33,492 nucleotides of DNA from an uncultured Muribaculaceae bacterium (lineage in GTDB: Bacteria; Bacillota_I; Bacilli_A; RF39; UBA660). The notes under the pieces are model-generated. The model searched no databases. It was not told where the DNA came from and saw nothing but the letters and a program-made list of their open reading frames with translations. The stretch lies in assembly GCA_964634785.1 (NCBI GenBank), contig CAZWKF010000002.1, positions 1 through 33,492 on the forward strand, given 5' to 3'. Below are positions 3,569-33,492 of the stretch, in pieces. Every line of letters starts with the position of its first letter. Position 1 is the stretch's first letter. Both the position numbers and the translations under genes were made by a program.

Positions 3569-3624
3569 ATTAGCCCTTCCTTCTCTTCGTTTATTATAAA
3601 CTATTTTTACGCATTTTTCTACTA

Positions 3625-4236: not shown

Positions 4237-4249
4237 TCTATCACCTCTC

Positions 4250-5374: not shown

Positions 5375-5388
5375 CTATCTCACCTCCA

Positions 5389-6403: not shown

Positions 6404-6411
6404 AGTCCCTC

Positions 6412-8751: not shown

Positions 8752-8768
8752 CTATTTCACCGCCTAAA

Positions 8769-11440: not shown

Positions 11441-11455
11441 TTTATCTCCTCCTTT

Positions 11456-11881
11456 TTATTTTCTTTGATAAGCATCTAAAATCTTTTTTATCTTCTCTAA
11501 TTCTTTTACTAAGTATTCATAATTCACATAGATTTCCGTAGGTGATAAAGTTACTCCATCACCAAAGGCCAGTTGTAATCTTGCTCTTTCAATTTTGTGA
11601 AATCTCACATATTGACTCAATTCTTTTTGAACTTTTCTTAACGCCTTATTTTCATCAAGCATCTTAGCAATTAACTTCACTCTTTTTACACGATACTTCA
11701 GTTCAATATCTCTTTTTGAATATCGACTCTTGCCAAGAAGTACTTGATCTAAAAGCAATCTTTCTTCGTAGTCGATTTCTTCCATCGCATCTTTATCGAA
11801 AAGGACAATGTATTCAGCTAAACGATTGTATTCTTCTGCAAAGTTTTGTAATACGGGTAATTCAAATCGGTTATAGTCCAT
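11456..11881 (-). CDS. Hypothetical cytoplasmic, helical/coiled-coil protein
   Basis: 141-aa ORF tightly packed within the T4SS operon. No recognisable motif. Confidence 0.45.
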   Translation of the reverse strand: MDYNRFELPVLQNFAEEYNRLAEYIVLFDKDAMEEIDYEERLLLDQVLLGKSRYSKRDIELKYRVKRVKLIAKMLDENKALRKVQKELSQYVRFHKIERARLQLAFGDGVTLSPTEIYVNYEYLVKELEKIKKILDAYQRK

Positions 11882-11889
11882 AACTTAGC

Positions 11890-14076: not shown

Positions 14077-14134
14077 GATCATCACTCCTGAAAAAACAGC
14101 TTATGTTTTCTTTCAATTACAATACACTAACATA

Positions 14135-19139: not shown

Positions 19140-19886
19140 CTAATTTGCTTCCAAACTCTTTTGCAAGGAAGTAATCAAATCTTTACCTGTTGGACTCTTC
19201 GTACTCTTTTTTTTACGAATGGATTTTCCCTCTTGTTTTTTTTGAATGGCATCTTTTATTTGATTTTGATAATCATCTTGATATTCTGATGGTGTAAAGT
19301 GACTTTCTAATTGTTCGACTAACTTTAATGCAAGATCAAATTCTTGTTTACTAAAGCTAGCAGTCGATACCGTATCGGGAATTTCAATTTCCTCTTCAAA
19401 ATACATGGTGGACATAAGAATTGTTCCTTCATAAAAACGTAAAAGGCAATAATAAAATTTAGTTCCTAATGTGGTCTTAGCAACGGCCACTTTTCCACTC
19501 TTTTTTAAGACTTCTAAAAATAAGGAATAGGCTTTTTCTTTCTTTGGTGGCGTAAGAACATAACTTTTTTCATAGTAAAAGCTCGGAATTTCTTTTTCAG
19601 GAACAAAGGCAACGACTTCAATGGTACCCTTTAAATCAATACGCATATTGGCTAGTTCCTCTTTCGTAAACGTGATAAAGTTTCCATCTTCTACTTCATA
19701 TCCTTTGACTAAATCGATTTCTTTAACTTGTTTCTTACAATGGTTACAATATTTTTGATATTGAATACGATGCCCACATTTTTTATGGAGTTGATGAAAA
19801 GTCATATCATTGTTATGAATAATGGGAGTATATAAAACAGGAATATTGACTAAACCAAAAGAAATTGCACTTTTTATATTGGCCAT
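19140..19886 (-). CDS. ku: Ku DNA-end-binding protein
   Basis: N-terminal hallmark SAISFGLVNIPV. Cys/His cluster CGH...CNHC. K-rich C-terminal tail. An ATG at 19886 after AAGGTGA is preferred to the GTG at 19895. Confidence 0.9.
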   Translation of the reverse strand: MANIKSAISFGLVNIPVLYTPIIHNNDMTFHQLHKKCGHRIQYQKYCNHCKKQVKEIDLVKGYEVEDGNFITFTKEELANMRIDLKGTIEVVAFVPEKEIPSFYYEKSYVLTPPKKEKAYSLFLEVLKKSGKVAVAKTTLGTKFYYCLLRFYEGTILMSTMYFEEEIEIPDTVSTASFSKQEFDLALKLVEQLESHFTPSEYQDDYQNQIKDAIQKKQEGKSIRKKKSTKSPTGKDLITSLQKSLEAN

Positions 19887-19897
19887 ATTGATCACCT

Positions 19898-20442: not shown

Positions 20443-20475
20443 AAAGAAGAGATCTAATCTTTCATCTCTTCTTTT
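20442..20475. terminator. Bidirectional Rho-independent terminator (tspO and the fibre operon)
   Basis: Perfect 12-bp stem, aaaagaagagat (20442-20453) / atctcttctttt (20464-20475), with a 10-nt loop and T-rich tracts on both strands. The right arm lies in the last codons of the 669-aa gene. Confidence 0.7.
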
Positions 20476-22454
20476 TGTATTTCTAATTTTGTCTCTTCCT
20501 CTTCTTGTTTAATAAGAGGTTGTTCTTCTTTTTTCTCTGGTGTTTGTTTTTCTCCCTCTTGTTCTTCTGTTTGTTCATCTGTTATCTCTTCAGGAGTATC
20601 AACGATTGGCTCTTGAGTACCAATTTCTGTATTTGGTATTTCACCATCAAATGGCTCTACCACAGGAACTTTTTCTTCTTCAAGTGGTTTTGTTTCATCA
20701 GGTTCTGCAGGTTCATCTACTACTGGTTCATCTACAACTGGAGTCTCAGGAGTTGGTGTAGTTTCTTGACTAGGATTCTCTACAGTATTCGTTACTTTTG
20801 TATGAGCAAGTGTAATCTCTACTTTTTGATTTGTTAAATCTCCCTTATCATTTGTAATCGTAACTGTTATAGCATCTTCAAAGTCCCCATTTGTAACTTT
20901 TCCAGTTCCTCCATTTGCAAGAATTGTATCTAAATCAGGAATAGTATGATATAAAGTATCATCAAGTGTAGCACTCCTTGCATTTTCTTCATCAATCTTT
21001 GCAATAAATTCTTTTATTGAAGTGATGTCGTAATAGGCACTACTGGTACGTGTTGTTAATACAATTGGTTCTGTATTTGAAAGCTTAACAGCCGATACAT
21101 AGATATTATTATTTGCGTTAAAGATATGAATTAAAACAGGTATGTTAGTTTCTGGTACTACATAAGAAATGTACTCACTAACTTCACCTTTTTTTATCTT
21201 TTGAGCAAGAGCATATAATGTAGAAACAATTTTAGTATCTTTAGAAATAGTATCTGGAATATAAGAATACTTCAAACATAGTACATCAATTATAGCATAA
21301 ATCATATCTGTATAATTTGTTTGTGAATTATATTCAATTGATTTTTCTTCTCCATTAAAGATATCTATAAATGTTAGTAAATTTTCTGATAACAAAATCT
21401 CATCATCAGTAGCACCACGAGTCACTCCTCTTATAGTTCCTGTCCCCTTAATAACTTGATAAATACCCCCATTATCATAAATATAAGTTCTAATCTTTAT
21501 AAATTCTTCACTAGCGGTTCCATCCTCATTATTTGGATAGAAGAACTTCAAATAGTCATCCAATACCTCATTTGCTCTCGATTCTGTAATATTGGCATTT
21601 GAGAAATATATCTTGTCTCTATTATTTCTAAATCTATAGGTTTTTACATATCCTATAAAGTCATCTGTTATATGGAAAACATAATATTTTTGTCCATCTA
21701 TAGTTGTATCTGACACGTCAATCCCACTTAGTGTAAGTGATGTAATAATATCAGTATTTGTACTTTGTAAATACTCAAGAATACTAGCTGACATATCCGA
21801 AATTCCATTTGCTTCTGGATATGTTACAGTAATCCAATCTTCTATTTCTTTTTTACGTGTTGCTGCATCAAGTTCAGGTATATCAGGTAAGTAATAATAT
21901 TCTGATTTATCACCATCAACATAACCGTGTGGTTTTCTTACAGTCGTAATACGATCCCCTTTAAAAAATAAGAATTTAAAGTCATCCATTGTTTCATAGA
22001 TTTTCGCATAAGTTGTAATTTTTGTTGTATTTGCATCAACAACTGTTCCATTTAAATCAGCTACTTGACAAGTATAGGTAACCCCTACTTGGTCAGCAGA
22101 CTTATCATGATATTCTAACGTTACTTTATTCTTATTAATAGTAGAAGTAGCCCTACTACTTATTCCATTTTTATCAATCAAACAACCACTTGGTACTTCT
22201 ACTTCATACTTATCATTATCAACATAAGTATTACGATCAAATGTTAATTTATATTGTATCTCTGTCCAACTTCCTCTTAAAAGAGTCATGTTAGCACTTC
22301 CTGATGGATTGACAAATGATATATCAGATTCTAAGGCAACATAATTATCCTTAACGTACTTGGAAGTCGTTTTAGAATAATTCGCAAATGTAGGAATACT
22401 AAAAACTAAAAGAGTTGTCATTAACACTTTATTGATAAGTTTTAAATTACTCAT
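20454..22454 (-). CDS. Large secreted protein of unknown function with an acidic/Pro-rich C-terminal tail
   Basis: Signal peptide ...LLVFSIPTFANYSK. ~560-aa globular region, then an E/P/T-rich tail. An ATG at 22454 sits 8 nt after AGGAAG. An alternative GTG lies at 22463. Confidence 0.6.
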   Translation of the reverse strand: MSNLKLINKVLMTTLLVFSIPTFANYSKTTSKYVKDNYVALESDISFVNPSGSANMTLLRGSWTEIQYKLTFDRNTYVDNDKYEVEVPSGCLIDKNGISSRATSTINKNKVTLEYHDKSADQVGVTYTCQVADLNGTVVDANTTKITTYAKIYETMDDFKFLFFKGDRITTVRKPHGYVDGDKSEYYYLPDIPELDAATRKKEIEDWITVTYPEANGISDMSASILEYLQSTNTDIITSLTLSGIDVSDTTIDGQKYYVFHITDDFIGYVKTYRFRNNRDKIYFSNANITESRANEVLDDYLKFFYPNNEDGTASEEFIKIRTYIYDNGGIYQVIKGTGTIRGVTRGATDDEILLSENLLTFIDIFNGEEKSIEYNSQTNYTDMIYAIIDVLCLKYSYIPDTISKDTKIVSTLYALAQKIKKGEVSEYISYVVPETNIPVLIHIFNANNNIYVSAVKLSNTEPIVLTTRTSSAYYDITSIKEFIAKIDEENARSATLDDTLYHTIPDLDTILANGGTGKVTNGDFEDAITVTITNDKGDLTNQKVEITLAHTKVTNTVENPSQETTPTPETPVVDEPVVDEPAEPDETKPLEEEKVPVVEPFDGEIPNTEIGTQEPIVDTPEEITDEQTEEQEGEKQTPEKKEEQPLIKQEEEETKLEIQKEEMKD

Positions 22455-22477
22455 AAACTTCACTTCCTTTCCTTTTA

Positions 22478-23128
22478 TTAATCTTTTTGAATAGCAGAGA
22501 ATCCAACTTGAATGGCTTTCGATATATTAGGATTTACTTGACTAAATACATAATCTCCATCACTATTGGTTTGTCCCCCACCAGTATATTGAATATCAAC
22601 TTCATACGTATATGTTATTGGTCTACTTGTATCACTTATTTTAACATCGTGATCTACTACAATACTGTTATATTTTGCTGTTGATTGATTATTTGTTCCC
22701 GTATTCTCATGATAACTTGTATCACTTGTTAAGACGCCATCTTTTGAATAAATTGTTCGACTTCCACTTCCTGCTGTCTCCACCACTCTTATAATTTCAA
22801 AGTTGCTATCCACACCTATTCTTGTAAAGAGATCAGCCGATACTTCTAACTCGGTTGTATCTAATGAAAACGTATAAGTAATCACTTCTCTTGGTCTTAA
22901 TCCATTATAATTTAAATTACATGTTTCATTATTTTCGTTACAGACCATACCATCTTTTAAAATTTTAACATTGAATTTGGCAGGACTTGCTTTTGTCGTT
23001 CCCTGTAGTTTTGACATATATCGTGAATAGGTTATTACTGTTGTAGCTAAGCCAATAACCGCGATATACATAAAAACCCATTTGATTAACTTTTGTCTAA
23101 ATAACTTACTATGTAATAACCCTTTCAT
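22478..23128 (-). CDS. Small secreted TasA/CalY-like protein (candidate minor fibre subunit)
   Basis: Hydrophobic N-terminus ending TTVITYSRYMSK, matching the motif in the 26720-27331 protein. Beta-rich. Ends ...VGFSAIQKD. Immediately downstream of a SipW-like gene. Confidence 0.5.
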   Translation of the reverse strand: MKGLLHSKLFRQKLIKWVFMYIAVIGLATTVITYSRYMSKLQGTTKASPAKFNVKILKDGMVCNENNETCNLNYNGLRPREVITYTFSLDTTELEVSADLFTRIGVDSNFEIIRVVETAGSGSRTIYSKDGVLTSDTSYHENTGTNNQSTAKYNSIVVDHDVKISDTSRPITYTYEVDIQYTGGGQTNSDGDYVFSQVNPNISKAIQVGFSAIQKD

Positions 23129-23137
23129 AATATTTTC

Positions 23138-23692
23138 CTACTTTCTTTTCTTTTTCTTATACTCTAAGAATTCTTTTTCTTCTTCACTTAAATCTTTTGG
23201 TACTAAGTCTTTATCTGTACTTCCTAAGAAGCAAATGACGATACCAATGATTAAGATAAGAATCATGACGATGGGATTTTGAATAGACTTTAGAAGAATT
23301 CCTAATCCCTTAAATCGTCTTACATATTTTCCAACAATGACTTTTGTTTCCATCTCTTCATCAGGAGAATTATTGGCATCTCCTTGTGTAATCATTTTAG
23401 AACCATTAATCTCGATAATACGGTGTGTGACAAAAGAACCATTGACGTCTCGAAATGTCACAATATCATTTTCTCTAAATCTTTTCTCATTCGTATCAAT
23501 GATGATGATATCCCCTATATCAAGTGTTGGTTCCATCGACCCTGAGATGACTTCCAACATGGCATAACCGCCAACCGTTGATAAGTCTTGTTTTAACACT
23601 TTAATACTTACAAACTGATAGACATTAAAAGCTACTAATAAAACTAAGAGTACATAGACAAATTTCACTAGTATTTTCTTTGCTAACTTCAT
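23138..23692 (-). CDS. sipW: ER/archaeal-type signal peptidase I (SipW-like), copy B
   Basis: VISGSMEPTL (Ser), VTHRII (His) and TQGDANNSPD. Extra C-terminal TM helix and a charged tail containing EFLEYK. Confidence 0.85.
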   Translation of the reverse strand: MKLAKKILVKFVYVLLVLLVAFNVYQFVSIKVLKQDLSTVGGYAMLEVISGSMEPTLDIGDIIIIDTNEKRFRENDIVTFRDVNGSFVTHRIIEINGSKMITQGDANNSPDEEMETKVIVGKYVRRFKGLGILLKSIQNPIVMILILIIGIVICFLGSTDKDLVPKDLSEEEKEFLEYKKKKRK

Positions 23693-23709
23693 AAGTACAC
23701 CCCTTTATT

Positions 23710-26616
23710 CTAATTTTTCATGCAGGCTTTGTTTTCCTTTGTATAAAGGATACTTACCCTTAAGAAATACTCATTATTATCCTCATCTACATTACTTCCA
23801 ATTAAGGTATCTACAGCGTCATTATCAAACCATTTCCACAAAACCGTAAGTTGAGTAGACTCCCCATTTTGTAGACGAATCTCATCACTACCTAATTCAA
23901 TAGTATTTTCTGTATAGAAACGCTTCAATTTTGAAGTGTAGTTAATTGGTGTAAACTTAGTATTCGCATCTTGATTTAAGATTGTATATCCAGAACGTGT
24001 TTGTAAGAAGAACTTATCATTAGCTTCTCTTGTCGTCTGTCTTATCATATAACCAAGATTAACACATTCTTTTTCGCGAAGACACATCGTATCTTCTTCT
24101 AACTTAATACCCGTAATGGTTAGAACTTGTCCCGTATCATTTGTAAAGTTCATCTCTTGAGCTCCACTTAATCCAGGATAGATAAGATTTGATATATTTT
24201 GTTCTGATTGAGATTTTGCATTTTTAAATAAATCTAAGTTATCAAATACAACAAGTCCCTCTTCTTTTACAATTTCTAACTGACTATCATCAACTGTCTC
24301 ATCAAAGATTGCATAGAGAGTTAAATTGCTATTTATCGTAATCTTATCATCTATTGCATAAGCTGTTCCCTTGCCATCTGCTTGTGTATTCCATGTTGCC
24401 TTATAATAGAGACATTGATCAGGTTTTGCTGGTTTATAAGCTTTATAAAGACTTAAGTCTAATTCATCTCCCGGTTTCATAACGAATTCTTTATTTGCTT
24501 GTAAAGAATTGATAAACCCGCCATTTACTTTGGCATTTAAGATAACATTATATTCTGCTTTAATCGTTGCTGTAAAGGAAACTTCTTTCACTGTATCTCC
24601 AAAAGCAGATCCTTTAATCTTAATATCAGCACTTCCTGTATTTTGTAAAGCATTTAACGTAAGTACATAAGATTCACTGCCATCACTATTGATCTTTTTA
24701 GATACAGCTACACTTACAACACTTGGATTTGAACTTGTAATAAGGATTTCCCCTTGTGTATCAACAACACCCGTATTCTTAGGTGTTAACTTGATTCCAC
24801 CAGGAATGTTTTCGGTATTAAAATCACTACCTAAGATATTTGTATTAAAGATGATATTTCTTGACTTATTATCATCTGTATAAGTAATATCATAATTCTT
24901 ACAAGCATCACTTTCACAAGTAGTAAGATAATAAGGTACAGTTTCTACAGTAACTTTTACTTCTGCCTTATGTCCATTATAATCAATGGTAATTGTATGC
25001 GTAGACCCAATATCATCTTTAGTAGGTGTTACTTTAATTAAATCTTGTTCTACTTTTACTTCACCCTTAAAAGTTCCCTTATCAGGTGTTACATTATAAT
25101 TTCCGCTTAATTCTTCCCACTTTCCAGAATCAATCGTTTTTTCATAAATCTTATAGCCAAGATCTTTTGTTCCATTTTCAACTTGAATCGTAATAGTTGA
25201 TTGGTTAAATTCGATTTTTCTTTCTGGTCTATAGATATTTACTGTAACATCTGCTTTTGTTCCATCTGCAGTTGTTACTGTTAAAGTGAATGTATTTTTT
25301 CCTTCATTTAATGTAAGATTATTTAATACTGGTGATGATGAAGTATTATCAGATGGAGTCGCTTTTAATTCACCAATAGAAGTTTTATCATAATCAACTT
25401 TTAATGTATAAGTTCCATCACTTTCTAATGTTAAATCTTGTCCATCAGCTGTTACTTTATCAATAGATAAGTCACTATTTAAATCTTTCTTAATGACAAC
25501 CGTATATGTCTTCTCTGATCCATCTTCAGCAATAACCTTAATTTGAGTTTCTGTTGTATTTGAAGTAAGGGTAATATTCTTTGTATATTCTATTGTAGCT
25601 TTGCTATCTTCTGGTGTAGCTGTAAGAGTAATTTCATTTACATTCTTACCTACTGTAATTTCATATCTCGTATCACTTACTTTTTTCACCGTTCCTGTTG
25701 ATGATGTAAGTGAACCAAGATTCTTATTACTTGATTTATCTGTTGGTTTATTTGGTTCTTCTGATTCACCTGGTTTATCAGAATTGCCTGGTTTATTGGA
25801 TTCATTTGGTTTATCTGAATTACTAGGTTTATTTGGCTTATTTGGTTTTTTCTTCTTTGTTTTCTTCGTTGTCTTTGTACTTTGATTTGTACTCTTCTCT
25901 TGAACATTCAATGTATATTCCGTTTGATAACTTCTTCCATTAGCACTAACTTCAAGAGTAATAGTAACTTTACCTGCTTTTTTAGCAGTAACGGTCAAAA
26001 TTCCATTTTTCGCCTCAGCTGTAGCGATGCTTTCATCACTTACAGTAACTTTAACTTCATCTTTAAGTCCTTTTAAATCATAAGGAATTCTTTTTGTTTT
26101 TCCATAACTTAAAATGATATTTCCATTTGTACTATCTAAAGTAATTCCATTCGTTCCTTCTTTTATCTTAAGTCTTGCTTCAGCTCTATAGAGAATATCA
26201 TTTTTCTCTGTTTCAGCAAATATCTTAACAGTACCCTCTTTTTTAGGATAGATAACAACATAATCTTTTTCAGCTACACAAGTAGCTATATTAGCGTCAC
26301 TCGTTGTACAATGAACATCATCACCCTTAATATTCTTAATTGTATAAGCTAACTTATATCCTGTATCATCTAATGTAATTTCGCTTGATTGCGATACAAA
26401 TACTAAATTTGTATTGGTACTAACATTTTTATCTTTTGAATCTTTATTAAAGATATAGTTAATTGATTCAAATAGATTTCCAATACGTCCCCAAAATGAG
26501 GAAGTACAACTCGTAATCAATAATAAAATAATAATGATAATAATGATAATACATATCGTGAGTTTTGTTTTCGTATGATTATTTTCTTCTTCATTCTTTT
26601 GAACATCTTTTTTCAT
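23710..26616 (-). CDS. Giant multi-domain surface protein (Big_2-like, cadherin-like beta-sandwich, Listeria-Bacteroides-type repeat, C-terminal TasA-like domain)
   Basis: N-terminal TM with a lipobox-like LITSC. Big_2-like ESIATAEAKNGILTVTAKKAGKVTITLEV. Cadherin-like LGSLTSSTGTV...YEITVGKNVNEITLTATPEDSKATIEY. ATWNTQADGKGTAY...LTLYAIF. AGGAGGTG RBS. Confidence 0.7.
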   Translation of the reverse strand: MKKDVQKNEEENNHTKTKLTICIIIIIIIILLLITSCTSSFWGRIGNLFESINYIFNKDSKDKNVSTNTNLVFVSQSSEITLDDTGYKLAYTIKNIKGDDVHCTTSDANIATCVAEKDYVVIYPKKEGTVKIFAETEKNDILYRAEARLKIKEGTNGITLDSTNGNIILSYGKTKRIPYDLKGLKDEVKVTVSDESIATAEAKNGILTVTAKKAGKVTITLEVSANGRSYQTEYTLNVQEKSTNQSTKTTKKTKKKKPNKPNKPSNSDKPNESNKPGNSDKPGESEEPNKPTDKSSNKNLGSLTSSTGTVKKVSDTRYEITVGKNVNEITLTATPEDSKATIEYTKNITLTSNTTETQIKVIAEDGSEKTYTVVIKKDLNSDLSIDKVTADGQDLTLESDGTYTLKVDYDKTSIGELKATPSDNTSSSPVLNNLTLNEGKNTFTLTVTTADGTKADVTVNIYRPERKIEFNQSTITIQVENGTKDLGYKIYEKTIDSGKWEELSGNYNVTPDKGTFKGEVKVEQDLIKVTPTKDDIGSTHTITIDYNGHKAEVKVTVETVPYYLTTCESDACKNYDITYTDDNKSRNIIFNTNILGSDFNTENIPGGIKLTPKNTGVVDTQGEILITSSNPSVVSVAVSKKINSDGSESYVLTLNALQNTGSADIKIKGSAFGDTVKEVSFTATIKAEYNVILNAKVNGGFINSLQANKEFVMKPGDELDLSLYKAYKPAKPDQCLYYKATWNTQADGKGTAYAIDDKITINSNLTLYAIFDETVDDSQLEIVKEEGLVVFDNLDLFKNAKSQSEQNISNLIYPGLSGAQEMNFTNDTGQVLTITGIKLEEDTMCLREKECVNLGYMIRQTTREANDKFFLQTRSGYTILNQDANTKFTPINYTSKLKRFYTENTIELGSDEIRLQNGESTQLTVLWKWFDNDAVDTLIGSNVDEDNNEYFLRVSILYTKENKACMKN
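25723..25896 (-). repeat. In-frame degenerate tandem repeat encoding a K/P/N/S linker
   Basis: Encodes KKKKPNKPNKPSNSDKPNESNKPGNSDKPGESEEPNKP. Iterated ggtttatt/ggtttatc units are visible in the DNA. Confidence 0.7.
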
Positions 26617-26719: not shown

Positions 26720-27331
26720 TTAGTCAACTTGGTTAACGATAATCTTAGCATCAACAGATACTGTTTTAGCATCAGTAGCAGTTGAAGCAAATGTAGTATC
26801 ATCTACACCATCAGTTACAAATGGCCATTCCCAATCAACTTTGATATCAGCTTCACCGTTACCATTCATATCTAAGTTTTCAGTTGAAGCAACAGTAAAT
26901 TTACCATCAGTAAGTGTAGCAGCAACATCATTTACCTTAAAATTAATTGGTAATCCATTTACCGTAGGAGTAAATTCAGCAACATAAGAAGCTTTAACTT
27001 CAGAATTGTTTTTTAATTTAATAGTAAATGTTCCTTTAGTACCAGGTGCGATAACAGTATTTTTTGTACCATTGTTTGCTACCTCTGTATCCATGCTTCC
27101 ATCAGTTTCTGTAATAGTTTCAAATAAATCAAATTTGAAATCATTTGCAGCAGTTACATAGTTCCCAGCAGCATCACCAATTTCGAATGCCCATTTTGCT
27201 ATTGTAGCAGTACTAGTTTTACCTGTAAATGTACTTGTATATTTAGCGTAAGTTCCACTTACTGAGTAAGCAGTAACAACAACTAACATAACTAATACAG
27301 CTAAGATTGACATCTTTTTATTTTTCATCAT
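26720..27331 (-). CDS. Small secreted TasA/CalY/BsaA-like protein (candidate major fibre subunit)
   Basis: Signal ...VVTAYSVSGTYAKYTSTF, resembling SipW-cognate signals. IAPGTKGTFTIKLKNNS and VDWEWPF...VSVDAKIIVNQ beta-sandwich-like signatures. An ATG at 27331 follows GGAGGTG; the longest ORF starts at 27346. Confidence 0.6.
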   Translation of the reverse strand: MMKNKKMSILAVLVMLVVVTAYSVSGTYAKYTSTFTGKTSTATIAKWAFEIGDAAGNYVTAANDFKFDLFETITETDGSMDTEVANNGTKNTVIAPGTKGTFTIKLKNNSEVKASYVAEFTPTVNGLPINFKVNDVAATLTDGKFTVASTENLDMNGNGEADIKVDWEWPFVTDGVDDTTFASTATDAKTVSVDAKIIVNQVD

Positions 27332-27454
27332 TTTCACCTCCCTCATTGTAAACTTCTTTCATATAGTGCATAAGTCGACACTATGCGTTCGGAAGCATAT
27401 GCTTTTACTTCCTATATATGTAAACAATCTTGCGATTGGTTACACCAATGTTGG

Positions 27455-28138
27455 TTAGTTTTTCTTCTTTGTATTCTTTGCTTTCTTTTCTTTTGATTCC
27501 TTATCCTCAGTTGTTTTTTCTTCTTTTATTTCATTCTTTTGCTTTTCTTCTAATTCTTTTTGTCTTTTATACTCTAAGAATTCAAGCTTTTCTTGATCGA
27601 TTTGTTTTTTATTCGAAACCATGAAAGCTGCGGCGAATACAACTGTAATACCTAAGATGACAATAATTATGGTTGTTGGATTGGCAAGTCCATTAAGAAT
27701 ATTACCAATACTAGGAATACGTGTGACATAAATTCCTTCAACATCACTTAGTTCAACTAAGTTTTGGTCTTGACTTGTATTGTTATCCCCCTTTGTGATG
27801 AAATAATCAACACCTTCACGATTCACGATTTCTATAATACGGTGAGTCGTTACAGTTCCTTCATTATCACGGAAGGCAATAACATCGTCTACCTTTAAAG
27901 TGGTTGGATCGACTATTTTTGTAATAATTAAGTCTCCCACTTTGATTTCTGTTTCCATTGAACCAGAGAGTACGATAAATGGTTTATAGCCAAACACACT
28001 AGGGACTTTGTCTTTATCGGTATTGGCTTGAATCATAATGGAAACGTTTACGGTAAGTATTCCAACAAGAACTGTACAGACAACGACCATTAACCAATTC
28101 GTCCATTTTTTGTACCACTTCTTATTTCCTTTCTTCAT
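27455..28138 (-). CDS. sipW: ER/archaeal-type signal peptidase I (SipW-like), copy A
   Basis: VLSGSMETEI, VTTHRII and TKGDNNTSQD. Extra C-terminal TM helix and a long K/E tail containing EFLEYK. An ATG at 28138 sits 10 nt after GGAG and is preferred to 28147. Confidence 0.85.
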   Translation of the reverse strand: MKKGNKKWYKKWTNWLMVVVCTVLVGILTVNVSIMIQANTDKDKVPSVFGYKPFIVLSGSMETEIKVGDLIITKIVDPTTLKVDDVIAFRDNEGTVTTHRIIEIVNREGVDYFITKGDNNTSQDQNLVELSDVEGIYVTRIPSIGNILNGLANPTTIIIVILGITVVFAAAFMVSNKKQIDQEKLEFLEYKRQKELEEKQKNEIKEEKTTEDKESKEKKAKNTKKKN

Positions 28139-28170
28139 ATCACACATTCTCCTTTTTATTTGTTTTTTTC

Positions 28171-31146
28171 TTAAGAAAGTTGTAACACTTTGTTTGTATT
28201 TGTATCTTTATTTTGACTATCTAAGAATTTTAAGAGTTCCGCATATTCAGCTTCCATCGTTTTCATTTCTTGCGCACGACTCTGTTGATAACTTTGTAAT
28301 TTGCCAATATCATCATTTCTCTCTTCAATAACTGGAGCTGACTCTTCAACTTTCTCTTCAGTTTGCGTTTGAACAACTTCTACAACAACCTCAGTGACTT
28401 TTACTTCTGTAACTTGAGAGACAACTGGTGTTTCTACTGGTACAGGTTCAATATCGTCCTTCACTTCTCCATTACCTAATAATTTTAAGAGCTCTGCATA
28501 TTCGGCTTCCATCGCTTTCATTTCTTGTTCACGATTTTGTTGATAAGCGGCTTGTAATTTACCCATCTCATCAAGTTCTTCTTCCTCTTCTTCGACAACT
28601 TCTTCTACTGCCGATTCTTCAGTGTTCCCTTTTTCTTCTTCTATAACTACAGGTGTTTCTCCTACAGGATCAGTATCTTGTTTTAACTTTTTATCCTTAT
28701 CAGGATCATCACCCATTGGCCATTCTTCATCATGATCATCTGGAAGAATCGCATCTTCTTTTTTATATATGATATCTTGTTTCTCTAATATAACATCAGT
28801 TGTTTCTTCCATTATAATATTTGCTGTTGCAATTTTTGCTTGAGGATTATTGGCTGCAATAAAAGCATCAATATCGGTTTCTGGTAATCCATGTTCTCTT
28901 TCAAATTCATGAATAGCATCTATTTCATCAATACCAAATTCAACAACTTTAGGGCAACCATTTCCATTATTACAACTATATTGTAAACCTAATAACATAT
29001 CTAATATAATCACTGGTTCTGGAGTACTATAAGTATGTTCTTTTGGAACTCTACTAATTTCTACACCATCAATTGATCTAACTTCTTCATAACAATAAGT
29101 TACAAAACGCGGATCATCTTTTCCGATTAAAGGATAAGTTACATCTTCTTCTGGTGTTTCTGTAATAACATGTTCATAATGACAGTTTTCACAAATCTCT
29201 ACACCATCAATTATATCTCCATATTGATGACTTTCTCTATTTGTGTTTGGACATCCTGTAACTAAACATACTTGTTCACAGTAGTTATCATCTACTTTAA
29301 TCCATTCACCAAACTGATCAATATGTGGATAAATATGAACATGGCCACATATTGGATCTACTTCATATTCATATCCATTTTGAACATATGGATCATCATA
29401 TGTACAAGCTTCTTTTGAGCCTTCTTTTACAACAGTAACGACTTCCCCACAAGTACAAGTATATGTCCCTATTTGATAATGTTCTGCACGATCATTTGGC
29501 GTTGATCCTGGAACAGTAACAGTTGTATAGACTAAATCTTCTGGTGCTACATCATGAACATGAACTCTTTCAACTTCTTGTCCACAATCTGGGCAAATAC
29601 CATAGTCTTTACCATCTTTATAAGTCCAGCTTGTTGGTTCACAGTTTACTGGTTTATTTGAAATTACTTTTACATGCTTACAATTTGAACAAACTTGTGT
29701 TATCTTCATTTGATGAGTTTTTCCATCCCCATTTGAAGTAATGGTTACATTTTCTTCTCCATATTCATGTGGTCTCTCACCAAGAACCGTTTGACAATCT
29801 GGACAAATAAGTTGTTCTTTTTCATCATCTTTAGAAATCCATTCAGGTTTCTTATGTTTTTCTCTTGTTTCTTGATATCCACAATCTTTACAATCACGTT
29901 CTTCTGTACAAGCATTTGGATTTTCTGCCCAATTGCCATAACGACAATCTTCACTATCGGTAACTTCTGATTCAAAGATATGATGGCATCCAGAACACTC
30001 TTCTTGTTTATATTTTTTATGTGTTCCATCATCATTACTATGAAAGAGATTCTTAATAAAGCTTAATTTACCATGTTTTCTTGTTTCTTTATAGTTACAA
30101 TTTGGATCTTCACATGTTCTTTCTTCTAAATCATTATTTAAGAACTTCCAATCTCCAAGTTTATGTTCATGGTCTATTTCTTGTGTTATTGTATGTCCAC
30201 AATTCTTACATTTCTTTTGTTTATGAGTATCAGAGATAATTTCCCATTCTCCATATTTATGATCTTGATATTGGATAAGTCCACAACTATCACAAATACC
30301 ATTTTCTTGAGTATCACTGATGGAAACCCATCTTATTGCTGGATGTTCTCTCTTTTCTACTTTACCACTCTTAGAAACTCTTTGTTCATACTTATCATCA
30401 AGTGCTTCCCATCGCCCCCATTCTTCTTTTTCTTCTACTGGTTTTTCTGGTTGAGTAGAAGCATTCGAGTTTGAATTTGATCCATGATTATGACTGTGTT
30501 CTTCGCTTTTCGTTTCTTCTTCTATCTTATCAGTATCTTCATTTGTAATTTCATCTTCATCAATATAAAGACTTCTTAAGATACTTAATAATAATGTATT
30601 TTGAGGAATTGTTCCCTTATATGGAACTAAACTTCCATACATTTCTGGATTTTCATTTGCAAAATGTTCAGCTAATTTCTTACGATAAGCTAAATCATTA
30701 GGATATCCAGCTGTTTCTAAAGCTTTGTTAATTGAATTTCCATCATAATCCTTAATATTTAAAACAGGAATAACTAATGCAGTATCTTCGATAATTGATT
30801 CTTCGTGTTTTGAATTGGAAATACGATTTGGTTTAGGATCATTTTCTGATACTGTAGTTTCTGGATTTTCTTCTGAATCATTCTTTCCTTTTCCAAATTT
30901 TTCTGCTGCAAGTTCAGTTGGATCTACGGTATCAATAATTTCAATTTCTGATGGATTCTTTTCTGGAAGTTCTTCAGGGACTTCGCCAATATGTTCTCCA
31001 TTCTCCCCAGATAAATCATGATTCTTATCATAAACATATCCACATGATGCTCCGGCAGTTGCCAATGCAAGCACTGCAGCTAAGCCACGGATAAGTTTTC
31101 TTTTTCCACTATTATTAGTAGTTTTTGTACTGTTTTCTGTTTCCAT
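28171..31146 (-). CDS. Giant secreted Cys/His-repeat protein with a duplicated C-terminal helical motif
   Basis: Signal/lipobox-like ...LALATAGASCG. About 10 units of [YF]-G-x-W ... C-x2-C ... H between aa ~240-735. E-rich C-terminus with two copies of GKLQ..QEMK.MEAEYAELLK. Confidence 0.6.
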   Translation of the reverse strand: METENSTKTTNNSGKRKLIRGLAAVLALATAGASCGYVYDKNHDLSGENGEHIGEVPEELPEKNPSEIEIIDTVDPTELAAEKFGKGKNDSEENPETTVSENDPKPNRISNSKHEESIIEDTALVIPVLNIKDYDGNSINKALETAGYPNDLAYRKKLAEHFANENPEMYGSLVPYKGTIPQNTLLLSILRSLYIDEDEITNEDTDKIEEETKSEEHSHNHGSNSNSNASTQPEKPVEEKEEWGRWEALDDKYEQRVSKSGKVEKREHPAIRWVSISDTQENGICDSCGLIQYQDHKYGEWEIISDTHKQKKCKNCGHTITQEIDHEHKLGDWKFLNNDLEERTCEDPNCNYKETRKHGKLSFIKNLFHSNDDGTHKKYKQEECSGCHHIFESEVTDSEDCRYGNWAENPNACTEERDCKDCGYQETREKHKKPEWISKDDEKEQLICPDCQTVLGERPHEYGEENVTITSNGDGKTHQMKITQVCSNCKHVKVISNKPVNCEPTSWTYKDGKDYGICPDCGQEVERVHVHDVAPEDLVYTTVTVPGSTPNDRAEHYQIGTYTCTCGEVVTVVKEGSKEACTYDDPYVQNGYEYEVDPICGHVHIYPHIDQFGEWIKVDDNYCEQVCLVTGCPNTNRESHQYGDIIDGVEICENCHYEHVITETPEEDVTYPLIGKDDPRFVTYCYEEVRSIDGVEISRVPKEHTYSTPEPVIILDMLLGLQYSCNNGNGCPKVVEFGIDEIDAIHEFEREHGLPETDIDAFIAANNPQAKIATANIIMEETTDVILEKQDIIYKKEDAILPDDHDEEWPMGDDPDKDKKLKQDTDPVGETPVVIEEEKGNTEESAVEEVVEEEEEELDEMGKLQAAYQQNREQEMKAMEAEYAELLKLLGNGEVKDDIEPVPVETPVVSQVTEVKVTEVVVEVVQTQTEEKVEESAPVIEERNDDIGKLQSYQQSRAQEMKTMEAEYAELLKFLDSQNKDTNTNKVLQLS
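28226..28305 (-). repeat. Coding direct repeat, copy 2 (see 28481-28564)
   Basis: ~85% identical to 28481-28564 by eye, with a 3-nt indel. Encodes GKLQSYQQSRAQEMKTMEAEYAELLKFL. Confidence 0.8.
28481..28564 (-). repeat. Coding direct repeat, copy 1
   Basis: Encodes GKLQAAYQQNREQEMKAMEAEYAELLKLL. Paired with 28226-28305. Confidence 0.8.
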
Positions 31147-31255: not shown

Positions 31256-32470
31256 TTATCTCTTGCAATTCATTTCGTAAGTTTTTCTAAGACAAATTTC
31301 TGAACCAGTATCTCCACTTCGATATTTTTCTAATACCTCTTTATTTGTAATTTTATAATGTCTTATAAACTCTTTTTCTCCTAAGAATAAAGCTCGACTT
31401 GAACAGCTACCGCAAAAATAATAGAATCTCGCTAAAGTTAGTTCTGCACTTTGCATTAAATTTTTAGGATTATTATAAATATAATCTAAACTGTTAGTAA
31501 AGAAAGCTACATATAGTTTCTCATTAATGCTATTTTCACTCATTGTAAAGTAAGCAGGAAAGCGAAGTAATATATCCAGCGCTTTTTTCTCATCATAGTA
31601 ATTTACTAGAATATCTTTTTTCTTTTTTAAAGTTTTATAGTCTATAGCTATAACAACTAGAGAATTTTCCATAGCCGATCTCATCCCATCTTCATCAAAC
31701 CCTAGTTTTTTAAAATTTTTTGAGAATTCATAAAGAACTTGAGGTGAGCAATTTAAACAGTTAGGATTTGCAAAAAGGCTCTTCTTAAATTTGTCTTTAT
31801 CAACTTTTAAAGCATTTGCAATATCAAAAAGGGCAAAAAGGCCATCAAAATTAAAATTTGCTCTTTTTTTCATTTTTATTCTGAGAATGTCTACTAATGG
31901 AATATGATAAGGTGCTATTACCTCTTCAACACTTTGATAGAAATGCTCATCTAATTCCAATATTTTACAGTTATACCCAGCACAAGTAGCAATCTCTTTT
32001 TTACTTAATCCAATTCCCATTAAATAGGAAATAATCTGTTGTACATGATGCGGTTCATCAAAAATAACAGCGACATTTTCATAAAACATTCTTTCAATTC
32101 GTTCTTCTGCTAAGCCTAGTTCTCTTAGTAAGTCTCTGATTCTTTCCATATTTACGCGATAGACCTTATCACTTTCTACTACTCTATCTTTAATGCTCGC
32201 TAACACACTCGGATAACGTTTATAGTAAGTGCTTTGCTTTTTATAAGTCATTGCCTTGGGATAATTAGCAGCTAAATCTCTTATTTGTTCTTTCGTATAG
32301 TTTAAATCTAATAAGTATTGTTCAAAAGTAGGAAAGTTCTCTTTCATTGTATCTAGATCATTTTTTATCGTATTCCATTTTTTAAGAATCATAATAATCT
32401 GCTCGTCACTAAATCCTAATGGCCTAAATAATTGAAAAGCTTTCATTGTCTCAACATTACTTATAAACAT
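31256..32470 (-). CDS. Helical-repeat protein, mTERF-like (paralog 1)
   Basis: Iterated L..LG[FL]s..ei units (PLGFSDEQII, ELGLAEERIE, GIGLSKKEIA, KLGFDEDGMR) and LLRFPAYFTMSENSINEKL. An ATG at 32470 is preferred to the TTG at 32473. Confidence 0.45.
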   Translation of the reverse strand: MFISNVETMKAFQLFRPLGFSDEQIIMILKKWNTIKNDLDTMKENFPTFEQYLLDLNYTKEQIRDLAANYPKAMTYKKQSTYYKRYPSVLASIKDRVVESDKVYRVNMERIRDLLRELGLAEERIERMFYENVAVIFDEPHHVQQIISYLMGIGLSKKEIATCAGYNCKILELDEHFYQSVEEVIAPYHIPLVDILRIKMKKRANFNFDGLFALFDIANALKVDKDKFKKSLFANPNCLNCSPQVLYEFSKNFKKLGFDEDGMRSAMENSLVVIAIDYKTLKKKKDILVNYYDEKKALDILLRFPAYFTMSENSINEKLYVAFFTNSLDYIYNNPKNLMQSAELTLARFYYFCGSCSSRALFLGEKEFIRHYKITNKEVLEKYRSGDTGSEICLRKTYEMNCKR

Positions 32471-32476
32471 CAAAAA

Positions 32477-32535: not shown

Positions 32536-33492
32536 TTACTTTATAGATTTCACTTTACCTAATCTTTTATGATAGAACTCAATAATCTCTTGATTACTCG
32601 CCCCATACAGTTTTTCAAATTGGTTCTCACCCATAAAAAGAATACGTGGAAAGCAACCATTAAAATAAGCATATCTTGCCAAAGTAAGTTCAGCACTTTG
32701 AATTAAATTTTTAGGATTCTCACAAATAAATTCTAAACTTTCCGTTTTTTTACAAGCCTCTAATTTTGATCGAATGTTTTCTTCACTCATTGTAAAATAA
32801 GCTGGGAATCTTACCATAATCTGCATGGCTTTATCTTCTTCTACATATTCCATCAATATTGATTTTTTAGCTTTCATGACTTCTTCATCTGTAATCATGA
32901 GTTTAATTGACTTTTCAAGCATTTCACGTATTTCTTCATCAGAAAATCCTATCTTATGACATCTTTCTATACATCCATAGCTCACTTCTTCCCCACTACT
33001 AATGACTTCTACATATTGTAAAAATTGTTTTCTAAATTTTGCTTTATTTACATTTAACTTATTTGCTACTTGAAAGACAGCTAAAATATTTTTTAAATTT
33101 AAAGCCCTTTTCTTTCGCATTTGACTTCTTAAAATATCGATAAGCGGAATATGATAAGGCGCAATTATTTCAATGATGTCACGATAATAAAGTTCATCAT
33201 AAACAAGTATTTTATAATTCAAGGTAGCCATCTTTCCTATTTCTTCTTTTGTTAGTCCCAATTGAATAAGGTAATCAATAATTGCTTTCAAATGCTCTGG
33301 ATCATCAAATATAAAAGATATATTCTTATCAAAGAAATACTCCATTTTCTTTTCAGGAATATCTAAATCGACTAATATCTTTCTTATTTCATCCATATTC
33401 ACTCTATATTCATTTACATTATCAACAACAGCATCTCTTATATTATTTAATACTTCTATTCGTTTTTGGCAATAATTTTTAACATCTTTTAC
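32536..33492 (-). CDS. Helical-repeat protein, mTERF-like (paralog 2), 5'-truncated by the window edge
   Basis: The frame stays open from 33402 to 33492 (VKDVKNYCQKRIEVLNNIRDAVVDNVNEYRVN-MDEIRK). This extension aligns with IKDRVVESDKVYRVNMERIRD of paralog 1. Shares IAPYHIPL[IV]DILR, RFPAYFTMSE and NPKNL[MI]QSAELTLAR. Confidence 0.5.
   Translation of the reverse strand, partial: VKDVKNYCQKRIEVLNNIRDAVVDNVNEYRVNMDEIRKILVDLDIPEKKMEYFFDKNISFIFDDPEHLKAIIDYLIQLGLTKEEIGKMATLNYKILVYDELYYRDIIEIIAPYHIPLIDILRSQMRKKRALNLKNILAVFQVANKLNVNKAKFRKQFLQYVEVISSGEEVSYGCIERCHKIGFSDEEIREMLEKSIKLMITDEEVMKAKKSILMEYVEEDKAMQIMVRFPAYFTMSEENIRSKLEACKKTESLEFICENPKNLIQSAELTLARYAYFNGCFPRILFMGENQFEKLYGASNQEIIEFYHKRLGKVKSIK

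What the first reader, a model, noticed from the sequence alone, without database searches (positions are those of the whole stretch)
28942..30429. About ten tandem Cys/His mini-domains in the 991-aa exported protein
Between aa ~240 and 735 a ~30-40-aa unit recurs: [H]-x-[YF]-G-[ED]-W, then 6-12 residues, then C-x2-C, then 6-10 residues, then H.

Examples: KYGEWEIISDTHKQKKCKNCGHTITQEIDHEH; RYGNWAENPNACTEERDCKDCGYQETREKH; KKPEWISKDDEKEQLICPDCQTVLGERPH; QFGEWIKVDDNYCEQVCLVTGCPNTNRESH.

I count 8 C-x2-C pairs and 32 Cys in total. Zinc-ribbon-like units are unusual in a protein with an export signal. They could be metal-binding or disulfide-knotted spacer modules in a surface stalk. I cannot assign them to a named family.
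Basis: seen in the sequence. Interest (0 to 1): 0.6.

Follow-up and report, generated by a model that had tools for sequence, protein, structure and literature searches.

The report
Exported Cys/His hairpin-repeat stalk protein
The 991-residue exported protein contains about a dozen small all-beta Cys/His units that probably form a metal-clasped rod, belong to no described family, and are encoded by the usual first gene of a TasA-like fibre operon in uncultured gut Bacilli.

Summary
The 991-aa ORF (28171-31146, minus strand) has 32 Cys and 8 CxxC, and residues 240-735 match the stated coordinates exactly.

The repeats are real. An HMM built only from other proteins scores the region at 114 bits, against at most 4.2 bits in 1000 shuffles.

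There are 12-13 units of two types, A and B. Together they form a ~65-aa super-unit. AlphaFold2 models it as all-beta at pLDDT 90.

No Pfam, NCBIfam, PDB-sequence or Foldseek match is significant, and no paper was found.

Ligand columns are 96-100% Cys/His, and one column swaps Cys (55%) with His (42%). All 31 array Cys are kept in a homologue that is 56% identical at other positions. No DsbB, DsbA-like protein, VKOR or cytochrome-c maturation gene was found in the genome. Metal binding is therefore more likely than disulfides or haem.

Predicted strand geometry and array-end asymmetry indicate that each site joins the last ligand of one hairpin to the CxxC of the next.

Relatives nearly all carry export signals. 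In 23 of 26 loci the gene sits directly before SipW and a TasA-like gene.

The stalk or anchor role and the metal identity are inferred. The scan had not noted this on other DNA.

The parts
28171..31146 (-). Complete gene for the 991-aa Cys/His-repeat protein (P0001)
   Evidence: ORF list and translation. It is the only gene in the 1.6-Mb genome that matches the super-unit profile.
31042..31098 (-). N-terminal export signal or anchor (aa 17-35): basic n-region KRKLIR, hydrophobic core GLAAVLALATAGA, then lipobox-like AGAS-C35
   Evidence: Read from the sequence. It matches the lipobox part of the G+LPPv2 pattern when a longer n-region is allowed. Lgt and Lsp are present in the genome. The Cys is absent in the closest homologue P0002, so lipidation is uncertain.
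30562..30804 (-). DUF3597-like domain (aa ~115-195), with conserved SI..AL ... R..LA..F ... Y.G...QN..LL..L
   Evidence: It aligns with the same domain in P0002-P0004 and P0007. P0007 passes the PF12200 cut-off at 33.3 bits; P0003 and P0004 reach E about 0.01; P0001 alone gives no hit. There is a weak PDB hit to 2gqb (E 0.11).
30343..30423 (-). Cys-less N-terminal pseudo-unit (aa 242-268) ending in His268; proposed cap that supplies the leading ligand for the first CxxC
   Evidence: Weak A-type match to profile positions 37-64. Across the family, 57 of 59 first knuckles have a C/H 13-30 aa upstream.
30073..30342 (-). Three tandem A-type units (aa 269-296, 297-328, 329-358) with knuckles C285/C288, C313/C316 and C345/C350
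   Evidence: hmmsearch domains. AF2 long model gives pLDDT 72-87 here, all beta, with each first Cys at the end of a strand.
29854..30072 (-). Super-unit 1 (aa 359-431): B unit (H376, C384/C387, C401) plus A unit (C413, C419/C422, H431)
   Evidence: 66.8 bits with the family HMM and 47.8 bits with the leave-out HMM. AF2 on aa 356-435 gives pLDDT 90.1 with six strands.
29767..29853 (-). Extra A-type unit (aa 432-460), knuckle C448/C451, end ligand H460
29554..29766 (-). Super-unit 2 (aa 461-531): B unit (H478, C486/C489, C502) plus A unit (C518/C521, H529/H531)
   Evidence: 63.8 bits with the family HMM and 36.5 bits with the leave-out HMM. AF2 long model gives pLDDT 74-87.
29152..29553 (-). 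Degenerate units (aa 532-665): a B-like unit (H556, C564/C566, C581), a half-knuckle (C600, H602), an A unit (C623, C627/C632, H640) and a short unit (C652/C655)
   Evidence: Weaker HMM matches. AF2 confidence is low here, pLDDT 36-70. All Cys are conserved in P0002.
28942..29121 (-). Terminal cap of the array (aa 676-735): C685, H704, C725/C731
   Evidence: It aligns with the cap 'CY..V..C..C ... P..H ... Y.C..C' of P0003, P0006 and P0007. In P0001 and P0002 the internal CxxC of the cap is lost.
28174..28914 (-). Cys-free acidic C-terminal region (aa 745-991) with a duplicated helical motif and the tail ...KVLQLS
   Evidence: Translation. The tail pattern [KR]-x-L-x-L recurs at the C-termini of many family members. 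Its function is unknown.
27455..28147 (-). SipW-type signal peptidase 1, immediately downstream
   Evidence: TIGR02228 at 90 bits, above the 51.85 cut-off. The same position is conserved in 22 other loci.
26720..27346 (-). TasA-like small subunit 1 with the motif SVSGTYAKYTS after the signal core
   Evidence: The family HMM and the motif are conserved in about 20 loci. No Pfam or NCBIfam hit.
20454..26616 (-). Rest of the conserved operon: 968-aa protein, SipW 2, TasA-like 2 and a 669-aa protein
   Evidence: Homologues of the 968-aa protein occur in 20 loci.

Best explanation
Residues ~240-735 form an extracellular array of 12-13 small beta-hairpin units held together by metal sites, most likely Zn(II).

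Each unit is strand, C-x2-C knuckle, strand, then a terminal His or Cys. The terminal ligand lies at the far end of the hairpin from its own knuckle. It therefore most likely pairs with the knuckle of the next unit. The fourth ligand is probably a His or Cys placed 5-8 residues before the previous knuckle, or the second His of an H-x-H. The roughly 13 sites would then clasp consecutive hairpins into one elongated all-beta rod.

The protein is exported and held at the membrane by its N-terminal signal anchor or lipid. The rod acts as a stalk. The gene is the conserved first gene of a SipW/TasA-like fibre operon, so the protein probably serves as the cell-proximal accessory or anchor component of that fibre system, in the position tapA holds in tapA-sipW-tasA.

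Shown here: the repeats, their conservation, the all-beta prediction, the export signals and the operon linkage.

Inferred: the identity of the metal, the bridging geometry of the sites, and the stalk or anchor role.
For: Repeats are real:
- The leave-out HMM scores 114.3 bits against at most 4.2 bits in 1000 shuffles.
- 232 cluster representatives among 1.84 billion proteins match the super-unit profile at E<=1e-3.

Metal ligands:
- Over 746 unit matches, the ligand columns are H 96%, C 99%, C 89%, C 99%, C 98% and H 100%.
- The 'end of B' column is C 55% / H 42%.
- All 31 array Cys and 21 of 25 His are conserved in P0002, which is 56% identical at other array positions.
- No DsbB, DsbA-like Thioredoxin_4 or VKOR was found in the genome.

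Fold:
- AF2 on aa 356-435 gives pLDDT 90.1 and six strands.
- The long model of aa 236-745 is all beta, with pLDDT 71-87 for aa 236-535. Every first knuckle Cys ends a strand, and every terminal H/C follows the return strand of 5-11 residues.

Bridging sites:
- 57 of 59 first knuckles have a C/H 13-30 aa upstream. The internal rate is 97% and the background 15%.
- Only 23 of 59 last knuckles have a C/H 6-17 aa downstream, against 98% internally.
- The Cys-less pseudo-unit aa 242-268 still keeps its terminal His.

Export:
- The basic n-region lies before the hydrophobic core.
- Nearly all relatives start with a signal, transmembrane segment or lipobox. Distant ones carry dockerin, cohesin or a C-terminal transmembrane segment followed by a KKK tail.

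Operon:
- In 23 of 26 testable loci the gene is directly followed by SipW and a TasA-like gene.
- Starting instead from the TasA-like gene, 35 of 52 loci have a profile-matching ORF upstream and 6 more have a Cys/His-rich ORF with at least 4 CxxC.
Against: - No metal was measured and no model coordinates were available, so ligand distances could not be checked.
- Many A-type junctions show only three obvious protein ligands.
- The long model has pTM 0.27 and low confidence beyond aa 540, so rigidity of the whole rod is not established.
- The lipobox is not conserved: 9 of 60 family representatives have one and P0002 has none.
- The 968-aa neighbour also has a lipobox, so P0001 is not the only candidate anchor.
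- The protein has no detectable similarity to TapA and lacks the TYAKY motif of the fibre subunits.
- 3 of 26 loci lack the operon context. In the reverse test 7 of 52 loci have an unrelated upstream gene.
Confidence: 0.55

Rival explanations
1. The units are disulfide-knotted spacer modules with no metal. The Cys pair oxidatively after export.
For: The array is extracellular. Cys-rich extracellular repeats are commonly disulfide-bonded in other organisms (general knowledge). A weak profile hit to the factor H complement module, a disulfide-bonded domain, appeared at E 0.17.
Against: - His is as conserved as Cys at defined columns, and one column swaps C with H at 55%/42%.
- The array has 31 Cys, an odd number.
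- No DsbB, DsbA-like Thioredoxin_4 or VKOR was found in the 88.5%-complete genome.
- The host is a gut anaerobe MAG lineage.
Confidence: 0.12
2. The metal sites are functional rather than structural. The array would be a high-capacity extracellular metal-binding or scavenging protein, or a sensor that couples fibre assembly to Zn, Ni or Fe availability.
For: There are about 13 predicted sites per chain. Many junctions have only three firm protein ligands, which leaves a position open or labile. A ZIP zinc transporter gene lies in the same window at 185-946.
Against: The ligands sit at hairpin junctions, as expected for structural clasps. The ZIP gene is 27 kb away and absent from the flanks of other loci. 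The array length varies freely between relatives, as stalks do.
Confidence: 0.15
3. The array is the binding (adhesin) part of the protein and recognises a host or bacterial ligand. It is not a passive stalk or fibre anchor.
For: Distant relatives combine the units with cohesin, dockerin, LRR and Peptidase_C1 modules typical of surface-interaction proteins. No other obvious adhesive domain was found in P0001.
Against: Unit number and order vary strongly even within one bacterial family, which is typical of spacers. Apart from the ligand columns, surface positions are poorly conserved.
Confidence: 0.1
4. The protein is a multihaem c-type cytochrome or another cytoplasmic zinc-finger protein, and the export prediction is wrong.
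For: Two knuckles read CxxCH: C384-H388 and C652-H656. The profile weakly matches C2H2 zinc-finger arrays in the PDB (Aart at 7e-5).
Against: - Both CxxCH His residues are lost in P0002, H388 to D and H656 to K.
- The column after the second Cys is mostly Gly.
- No CcsA/CcmF family gene was found in the genome.
- AF2 predicts no helix, so the fold is not beta-beta-alpha.
- Relatives carry lipoboxes, dockerins and C-terminal stop-transfer anchors.
Confidence: 0.03

Closest known systems
Zinc ribbon / zinc-knuckle mini-domains (Pfam zinc-ribbon families such as Zn_Ribbon_YjdM, Zn_ribbon_6, A2L_zn_ribbon)
   Same: Both have a C-x2-C knuckle at the tip of a beta-hairpin, an all-beta fold and a small size. 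Sub-threshold matches cover the knuckle segments at E 0.001-0.1. Foldseek gives partial 35-45-column overlaps with the NrdR zinc ribbon.
   Different: - There is only one CxxC per unit; the remaining ligands are single His or Cys residues far from it along the strands.
- Every Pfam score is below the gathering cut-off.
- The array is extracellular and tandem.
- The sites appear to bridge consecutive hairpins.
Tandem C2H2 zinc-finger arrays (e.g. designed Aart, CTCF)
   Same: Both show a periodic H-x7-C-x2-C spacing across unit boundaries. The profile gives a summed E of 7e-5 against Aart, and eukaryotic zinc-finger proteins appear among the weak library hits.
   Different: - The predicted fold has no helix.
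- The ligand order and spacings differ: there is no C-x12-H-x3-H.
- The proteins are bacterial and exported.
- The similarity is one of pattern, not of fold.
TapA (YqxM) of the Bacillus subtilis tapA-sipW-tasA operon
   Same: Both are the first gene directly before sipW and the fibre subunit gene, and both are exported proteins containing Cys. TapA is membrane-associated and starts TasA filaments by donor-strand complementation (PMC10151520).
   Different: - No sequence similarity: P0001 gives no NCBIfam match at all, although I did not confirm that a TapA model is in that library.
- P0001 is four times longer.
- It lacks the fibre-subunit-like N-terminal motif that TapA shares with TasA.
- It has a general signal or lipobox rather than a SipW-type signal.
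Stalk repeats of Gram-positive fibrillar adhesins, including Zn-dependent G5-E repeats of Aap/SasG (recalled from memory, not tested)
   Same: Both are tandem small beta-rich modules of variable copy number that project a distal region from the cell surface.
   Different: Those stalks are essentially Cys-free. In Aap, zinc mediates contacts between molecules rather than folding of each module. No sequence or fold match was found here.
PF19079 CFSR (collagen-flanked surface repeat)
   Same: There are weak matches to the B-type unit of relatives: P0006 at 21.6 bits and P0014 at 14.6 bits.
   Different: All scores are below the 27-bit cut-off. P0001 itself gives no match even at E<=10.

Membership tests
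Zinc ribbon (Pfam zinc-ribbon families) | Score above the gathering threshold of a zinc-ribbon family model | tested here: not met
   The best match is Zn_Ribbon_YjdM at 19.3 bits against a 30.8 cut-off, on one super-unit. The whole protein gives none at E<=0.01.
Zinc ribbon (Pfam zinc-ribbon families) | Two CxxC (or CxxH) knuckles from two hairpins that bind one zinc within one domain | tested here: not met
   Each unit has one CxxC, and the other ligands are single residues. AF2 strands place them at the opposite end of the hairpin.
C2H2 zinc finger | Beta-beta-alpha fold with C-x2-4-C-x12-H-x3-5-H | tested here: not met
   AF2 models contain no helix. The spacings are C-x2-C-x13-C and C-x2-C-x8-9-H.
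c-type multihaem cytochrome | Conserved CxxCH motifs and a cytochrome-c maturation system | tested here: not met
   Only 2 of 9 knuckles read CxxCH, and both His residues are lost in P0002. PF01578 was not found in the 88.5%-complete genome.
TapA / YqxM | Sequence match to a TapA family model | tested here: inconclusive
   P0001 matched no NCBIfam family at E<=0.01. I did not confirm that the library holds a TapA/YqxM model, so this is a general negative rather than a specific test.
TapA / YqxM | Gene immediately upstream of sipW and the fibre subunit gene | tested here: met
   This holds in the window and in 23 of 26 loci. It shows positional analogy only.
TapA / YqxM | N-terminal segment resembling the fibre subunit's donor strand, with a SipW-type signal | tested here: not met
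   The TasA-like proteins carry SVSGTYAKYTS or TVITYSKYIS. The Cys/His proteins do not.
PF19079 CFSR | Score above the 27-bit gathering threshold | tested here: not met
   P0001 gives no hit at E<=10. The best relative, P0006, reaches 21.6 bits.
PF12200 DUF3597 (N-terminal domain only) | Score above the 29.8-bit gathering threshold | tested here: inconclusive
   P0001 aa 111-195 gives no hit. The aligned domain of P0007 scores 33.3 bits, and P0003 and P0004 score 16.9 and 16.7 bits.
Bacterial lipoprotein | Lipobox [LVI..][ASTVI..][GAS]-C after a signal core, with Lgt and Lsp in the genome | tested here: inconclusive
   AGAS-C35 fits the lipobox part of G+LPPv2 only if a longer n-region is allowed. 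P0002 has no Cys at that position, and only 9 of 60 relatives fit. Lgt and Lsp are present.
New Cys/His super-unit family defined here (alignments A2 and A4) | Significant match to a super-unit profile built without the query | tested here: met
   114.3 bits against at most 4.2 bits in shuffles. Two full super-units and several half-units are detected.

The most novel reading that the evidence does not exclude
This would be an undescribed extracellular fold principle: a continuous beta-hairpin rod in which every junction is clasped by a zinc site shared between neighbouring hairpins. The rod would span the cell wall as the membrane-anchored base of a SipW-dependent TasA-like fibre. It would engage the fibre through its conserved C-terminal [KR]-x-L-x-L tail, so that zinc availability could govern fibre display in uncultured gut Bacilli.
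Probability: 0.2. Interest if true: 0.75.

Novelty: new variant of a known kind. Interest (0 to 1): 0.58.

Why it matters
- Exported proteins of Gram-positive bacteria usually avoid cysteine, and structural zinc sites outside the cell are rare. A conserved stalk made of metal-clasped hairpins would add a new building block to the known repertoire of bacterial surface stalks.
- The family has no Pfam entry or solved structure. It also reaches into cellulosome-type surface proteins that carry dockerin and cohesin.
- It marks the first gene of a fibre operon that is widespread in small-genome, uncultured gut Bacilli (MAGs labelled Bacilli, Tenericutes or Mycoplasma). Their surface biology is essentially unknown.
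- An 80-residue fragment already gives a confident model, so metal analysis and structure determination are directly feasible.

Tried and rejected
- Pfam and NCBIfam on the whole protein and on single super-units, even at E<=10. Only sub-threshold zinc-knuckle noise appeared.
- PDB sequence search with the protein and with the profile. Only C2H2 arrays matched, through Cys/His periodicity.
- Foldseek against the PDB with the 80-aa model. The best E was 0.2, to EF-P at rmsd 17 A. The 510-aa model hit beta-propellers at TM 0.06-0.1 and rmsd about 46 A, which is meaningless.
- Word-indexed homologue searches found only 7 relatives. The exhaustive profile search was needed to find more.
With P0001 alone it found nothing. 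It worked only when seeded with the TasA-like gene.
- An MSA of 178 aa with fragment rows (A3) was discarded because MAFFT tore off the terminal His residues.
- Model coordinates are not exposed, so ligand distances could not be measured. I used DSSP strand limits and array-end statistics instead.
- The c-type haem reading of CxxCH was rejected.
- A conserved lipoprotein reading was rejected for the family as a whole.
- The Cys/His protein does not share the SipW-type TYAKY signal.
- Literature searches for SipW with cysteine-rich and zinc, and for zinc-binding stalk domains, found nothing relevant.
Full report
**1. Observation**

The finding lies inside one ORF, window 28171..31146 on the minus strand, encoding 991 aa.

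- The four quoted example strings are present at aa 297-328, 402-431, 432-460 and 611-640.
- Cys plus His make up 11.3% of aa 240-735 and 2.2% of the rest of the protein.

To test for chance, I built a profile from repeat units of other proteins only, with no P0001 or P0002 rows. It scores aa 240-735 at 114.3 bits. The best of 1000 composition-preserving shuffles scores 4.2 bits.

**2. Anatomy of the repeats**

Anchoring all sequences on the CxxC knuckles shows two unit types.

- Type B reads Y-x-S-N-x-D-G-T-H, 7 residues, C-x(1-2)-C, about 13 residues, then C.
- A B unit followed by an A unit forms a super-unit of 63-68 aa. This super-unit recurs in all relatives.

In P0001 the profile finds the following:

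| Element | Residues |
|---|---|
| Full super-units | aa 365-431 and 466-529 |
| Partial super-units | aa 307-358 and 552-602 |
| A-only units | aa 272-296, 297-328, 329-358, 432-460, 611-640 |
| Short unit | around C652/C655 |
| Cys-less pseudo-unit that keeps its terminal His | aa 242-268 |
| Terminal cap | aa 676-735 |

This makes 12-13 units. All 31 Cys of the array can be given a role: 25 are in knuckles and 6 are single 'pre' or 'end' ligands.

**3. Relatives**

- Word-indexed searches found only seven relatives.
- An exhaustive profile search of 1.84 billion cluster representatives found 232 proteins at E<=1e-3, 103 at E<=1e-10 and 22 at E<=1e-30.
- Nearly all begin with a basic n-region followed by a hydrophobic core, and some have a lipobox.
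- More distant members end in a transmembrane segment plus a KKK tail, or in a dockerin. Pfam finds dockerin, cohesin, Peptidase_C1 and LRR domains beside the repeats.
- A few eukaryotic C2H2 zinc-finger proteins appear among the weak hits. This shows that the periodic Cys/His pattern alone gives some score.
- In the window's own genome (a 1.6-Mb MAG, 191 contigs, 88.5% complete) this is the only gene with the repeat.
- In a sample of 301 genomes of the same order, 23 genomes in 16 of 127 genera have it.
- Named records with the same operon are MAGs labelled uncultured Bacilli, Tenericutes, Mycoplasma or Erysipelotrichaceae. They come from mouse, rabbit and ruminant gut.

**4. Known families**

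- No Pfam or NCBIfam model matches P0001.
- At E<=10 only sub-threshold zinc-knuckle families and CFSR appear, all below their cut-offs.
- PDB sequence searches give nothing for the protein. With the profile, only C2H2 arrays match.
- Foldseek finds no credible structural match.
- Literature searches found no description.
- The N-terminal domain (aa ~115-195) is a likely DUF3597 relative. The aligned domain of P0007 passes the Pfam cut-off, but P0001's own sequence does not.

**5. Structure prediction**

- With a 24-row super-unit alignment, AlphaFold2 models aa 356-435 at mean pLDDT 90.1 as six beta-strands: model residues 6-15, 20-29, 35-45, 52-54, 59-64 and 70-74.
- A 510-residue model of aa 236-745 is entirely beta, with pLDDT 71-87 for aa 236-535 and poor confidence beyond. 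Its pTM of 0.27 means long-range geometry is undefined.
- In both models the first Cys of every knuckle ends a strand. The terminal His or Cys follows the return strand of 5-11 residues.
- The 'pre' ligand and the 'end' ligand of a unit therefore lie at the opposite end of the hairpin from that unit's own knuckle, 16-35 A away if the strands are extended. They cannot share a metal with it.
- They are instead placed next to the knuckle of the following unit.

**6. Sequence test of the bridging model**

If a site is made of a leading ligand plus the next knuckle, two things follow. Arrays should start with a ligand before the first knuckle, and they should end with a knuckle that has no trailing ligand.

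- In 59 family proteins, 57 first knuckles have a Cys or His 13-30 residues upstream. The internal rate is 97% and the background is 15%.
- Only 23 of 59 last knuckles have one 6-17 residues downstream, against 98% for internal knuckles. Most of those 23 belong to a sub-family with a further Cys-containing cap.
- First units typically begin H-x-H-x-[YF]-G-x-W directly after a low-complexity linker.
- In P0001 the Cys-less pseudo-unit still ends in His268.
- In P0004, knuckle-less units keep their terminal His, while the unit that precedes a knuckle-less unit has lost its own.

These observations fit bridging sites. They do not fit self-contained units.

**7. Metal, disulfide or haem**

- Over 746 unit matches the ligand columns are 89-100% Cys or His. 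The 'end of B' column is C 55% / H 42%. Such interchange is expected for metal ligands and not for disulfide partners.
- The position four residues before the A knuckle is E, H or D in 79% of units. It may supply the fourth ligand where no Cys or His is available.
- All 31 array Cys are identical in P0002, and 21 of 25 His are conserved. Other array positions are 56% identical.
- The genome shows no DsbB, DsbA-like Thioredoxin_4 or VKOR gene. Absence in an 88.5%-complete MAG is not proof.
- The two CxxCH motifs are not conserved: H388 becomes D and H656 becomes K in P0002. No cytochrome-c maturation gene was found.
- Zinc is the most probable metal by analogy with Cys/His knuckles in general (established knowledge). 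It was not measured.

**8. Location**

- The N-terminus has five basic residues before a 13-residue hydrophobic core and acidic residues after it. By the positive-inside rule this puts the bulk of the protein outside the cell (inference).
- AGAS-C35 fits a Gram-positive lipobox if a longer n-region is allowed, and Lgt and Lsp are present.
- P0002 lacks this Cys and only 9 of 60 relatives have a lipobox. The conserved feature is export with an N-terminal anchor or signal, not lipidation.

**9. Genomic context**

- In the window the gene is followed by a SipW-type peptidase (TIGR02228, 90 bits), a small TasA-like protein, a 968-aa protein, a second SipW, a second TasA-like protein and a 669-aa protein.
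- The same order is seen around P0002, P0006 and P0003.
- It is also seen in 23 of 26 loci with enough downstream DNA among genomes of the same order. The exceptions are L006, L037 and L049.
- Starting instead from the TasA-like gene, 52 loci have at least 2.5 kb of upstream sequence. Of these, 35 have a profile-matching ORF directly upstream and 6 more have a Cys/His-rich ORF with at least 4 CxxC. About seven have an unrelated gene there.
- The TasA-like subunits carry invariant SVSGTYAKYTS or TVITYSKYIS motifs. The Cys/His proteins lack these.
- The gene therefore occupies the position of tapA in tapA-sipW-tasA but is not a TapA homologue. TapA is a membrane-associated initiator of TasA filaments (PMC10151520). 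In Clostridium perfringens the sipW-bsaA operon also holds accessory secreted proteins that improve polymer yield (PMC7395162).
- The anchor or accessory role proposed here is an inference from gene position and the N-terminal anchor. The 968-aa neighbour also has a lipobox, which weakens the argument.

**10. Verdict**

The repeats are real, conserved and unassigned. The best-supported reading is an exported rod of beta-hairpins clasped by inter-unit metal sites, serving as the stalk of an accessory protein of a TasA-like fibre system. The metal identity, the site geometry and the biological role remain to be shown.

The earlier-findings index held notes only on this same window. The feature had not been reported on other DNA.

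Noticed in passing
window 185-946 (-): A ZIP-family zinc transporter gene (PF02535, 101 bits) lies at the far end of the same contig as this putative zinc-rich exported protein. It is 27 kb away and was not seen in the flanks of other loci.
   Followed up: partly
window 1034-14085 (-): A Gram-positive type IV secretion gene set: VirD4-type coupling protein (1034-3568), VirB4/TraG-like ATPase (8769-10562), TrbL/VirB6-like protein (11890-14085), and NlpC/P60 (4250-5374) and M23 (6412-8751) wall hydrolases. The contig may be a conjugative element.
   Followed up: partly
window 31256-32473 (-) and 32536-33402 (-): Two tandem paralogous proteins match the mTERF family (PF02536, E 2e-15 and 3e-12). 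This family is known mainly from organelles, so it is unusual in a bacterium. They lie directly upstream of the fibre operon.
   Followed up: no
window 28174-28200 (-), and the C-termini of relatives P0002-P0079: Many family members end in a short tail of the form [KR]-x-L-x-L-[KRQI], for example KVLQLS, PVLSLQS, KVLVLK, YTLVRKLY and KTLSLIP. It could be a docking strand or a sorting signal. It is unexplained.
   Followed up: partly
window 28226-28564 (-): The Cys-free acidic C-terminal region holds a duplicated helical motif of about 30 aa (..GKLQ..YQQ.R.QEMK.MEAEYAELLK.L). P0002 has one copy.
   Followed up: no
window 23710-26616 (-): The 968-aa protein in the middle of the operon also has a lipobox-like signal (LLLITS-C). 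It has weak cadherin-like and Listeria-Bacteroides repeat matches, and homologues in 20 loci.
   Followed up: partly
window 26720-27346 (-) and 22478-23128 (-); loci L031-L056: The two small TasA-like proteins carry near-invariant motifs just after the signal core: SVSGTYAKYTS in copy 1 and TVITYSKYIS in copy 2. These hold across about 20 genomes, yet the proteins match no Pfam or NCBIfam SipW-substrate model.
   Followed up: partly
loci L006, L007 and L037; proteins P0005, P0019, P0026, P0027 and others: A sub-family of the repeat proteins ends in a different conserved cap, C..CG..Y.[IV].Y.H.F.[DN]G.C.R...C. In the loci examined it is not next to SipW.
   Followed up: no
window 18312-19895 (-): Adjacent Ku and ATP-dependent DNA ligase genes (PF02735, PF01068) lie between the fibre operon and the T4SS. 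The locus of P0002 has the same pair.
   Followed up: no
proteins P0083, P0098, P0101, P0029, P0037 (distant hits): Large surface proteins with dockerin, cohesin or LRR domains carry many A-type units of the form H.W....V....TCT..G.....C..CG......H. The hairpin unit is therefore probably much more widespread in Firmicutes than the 232 hits of the two-unit profile suggest.
   Followed up: no
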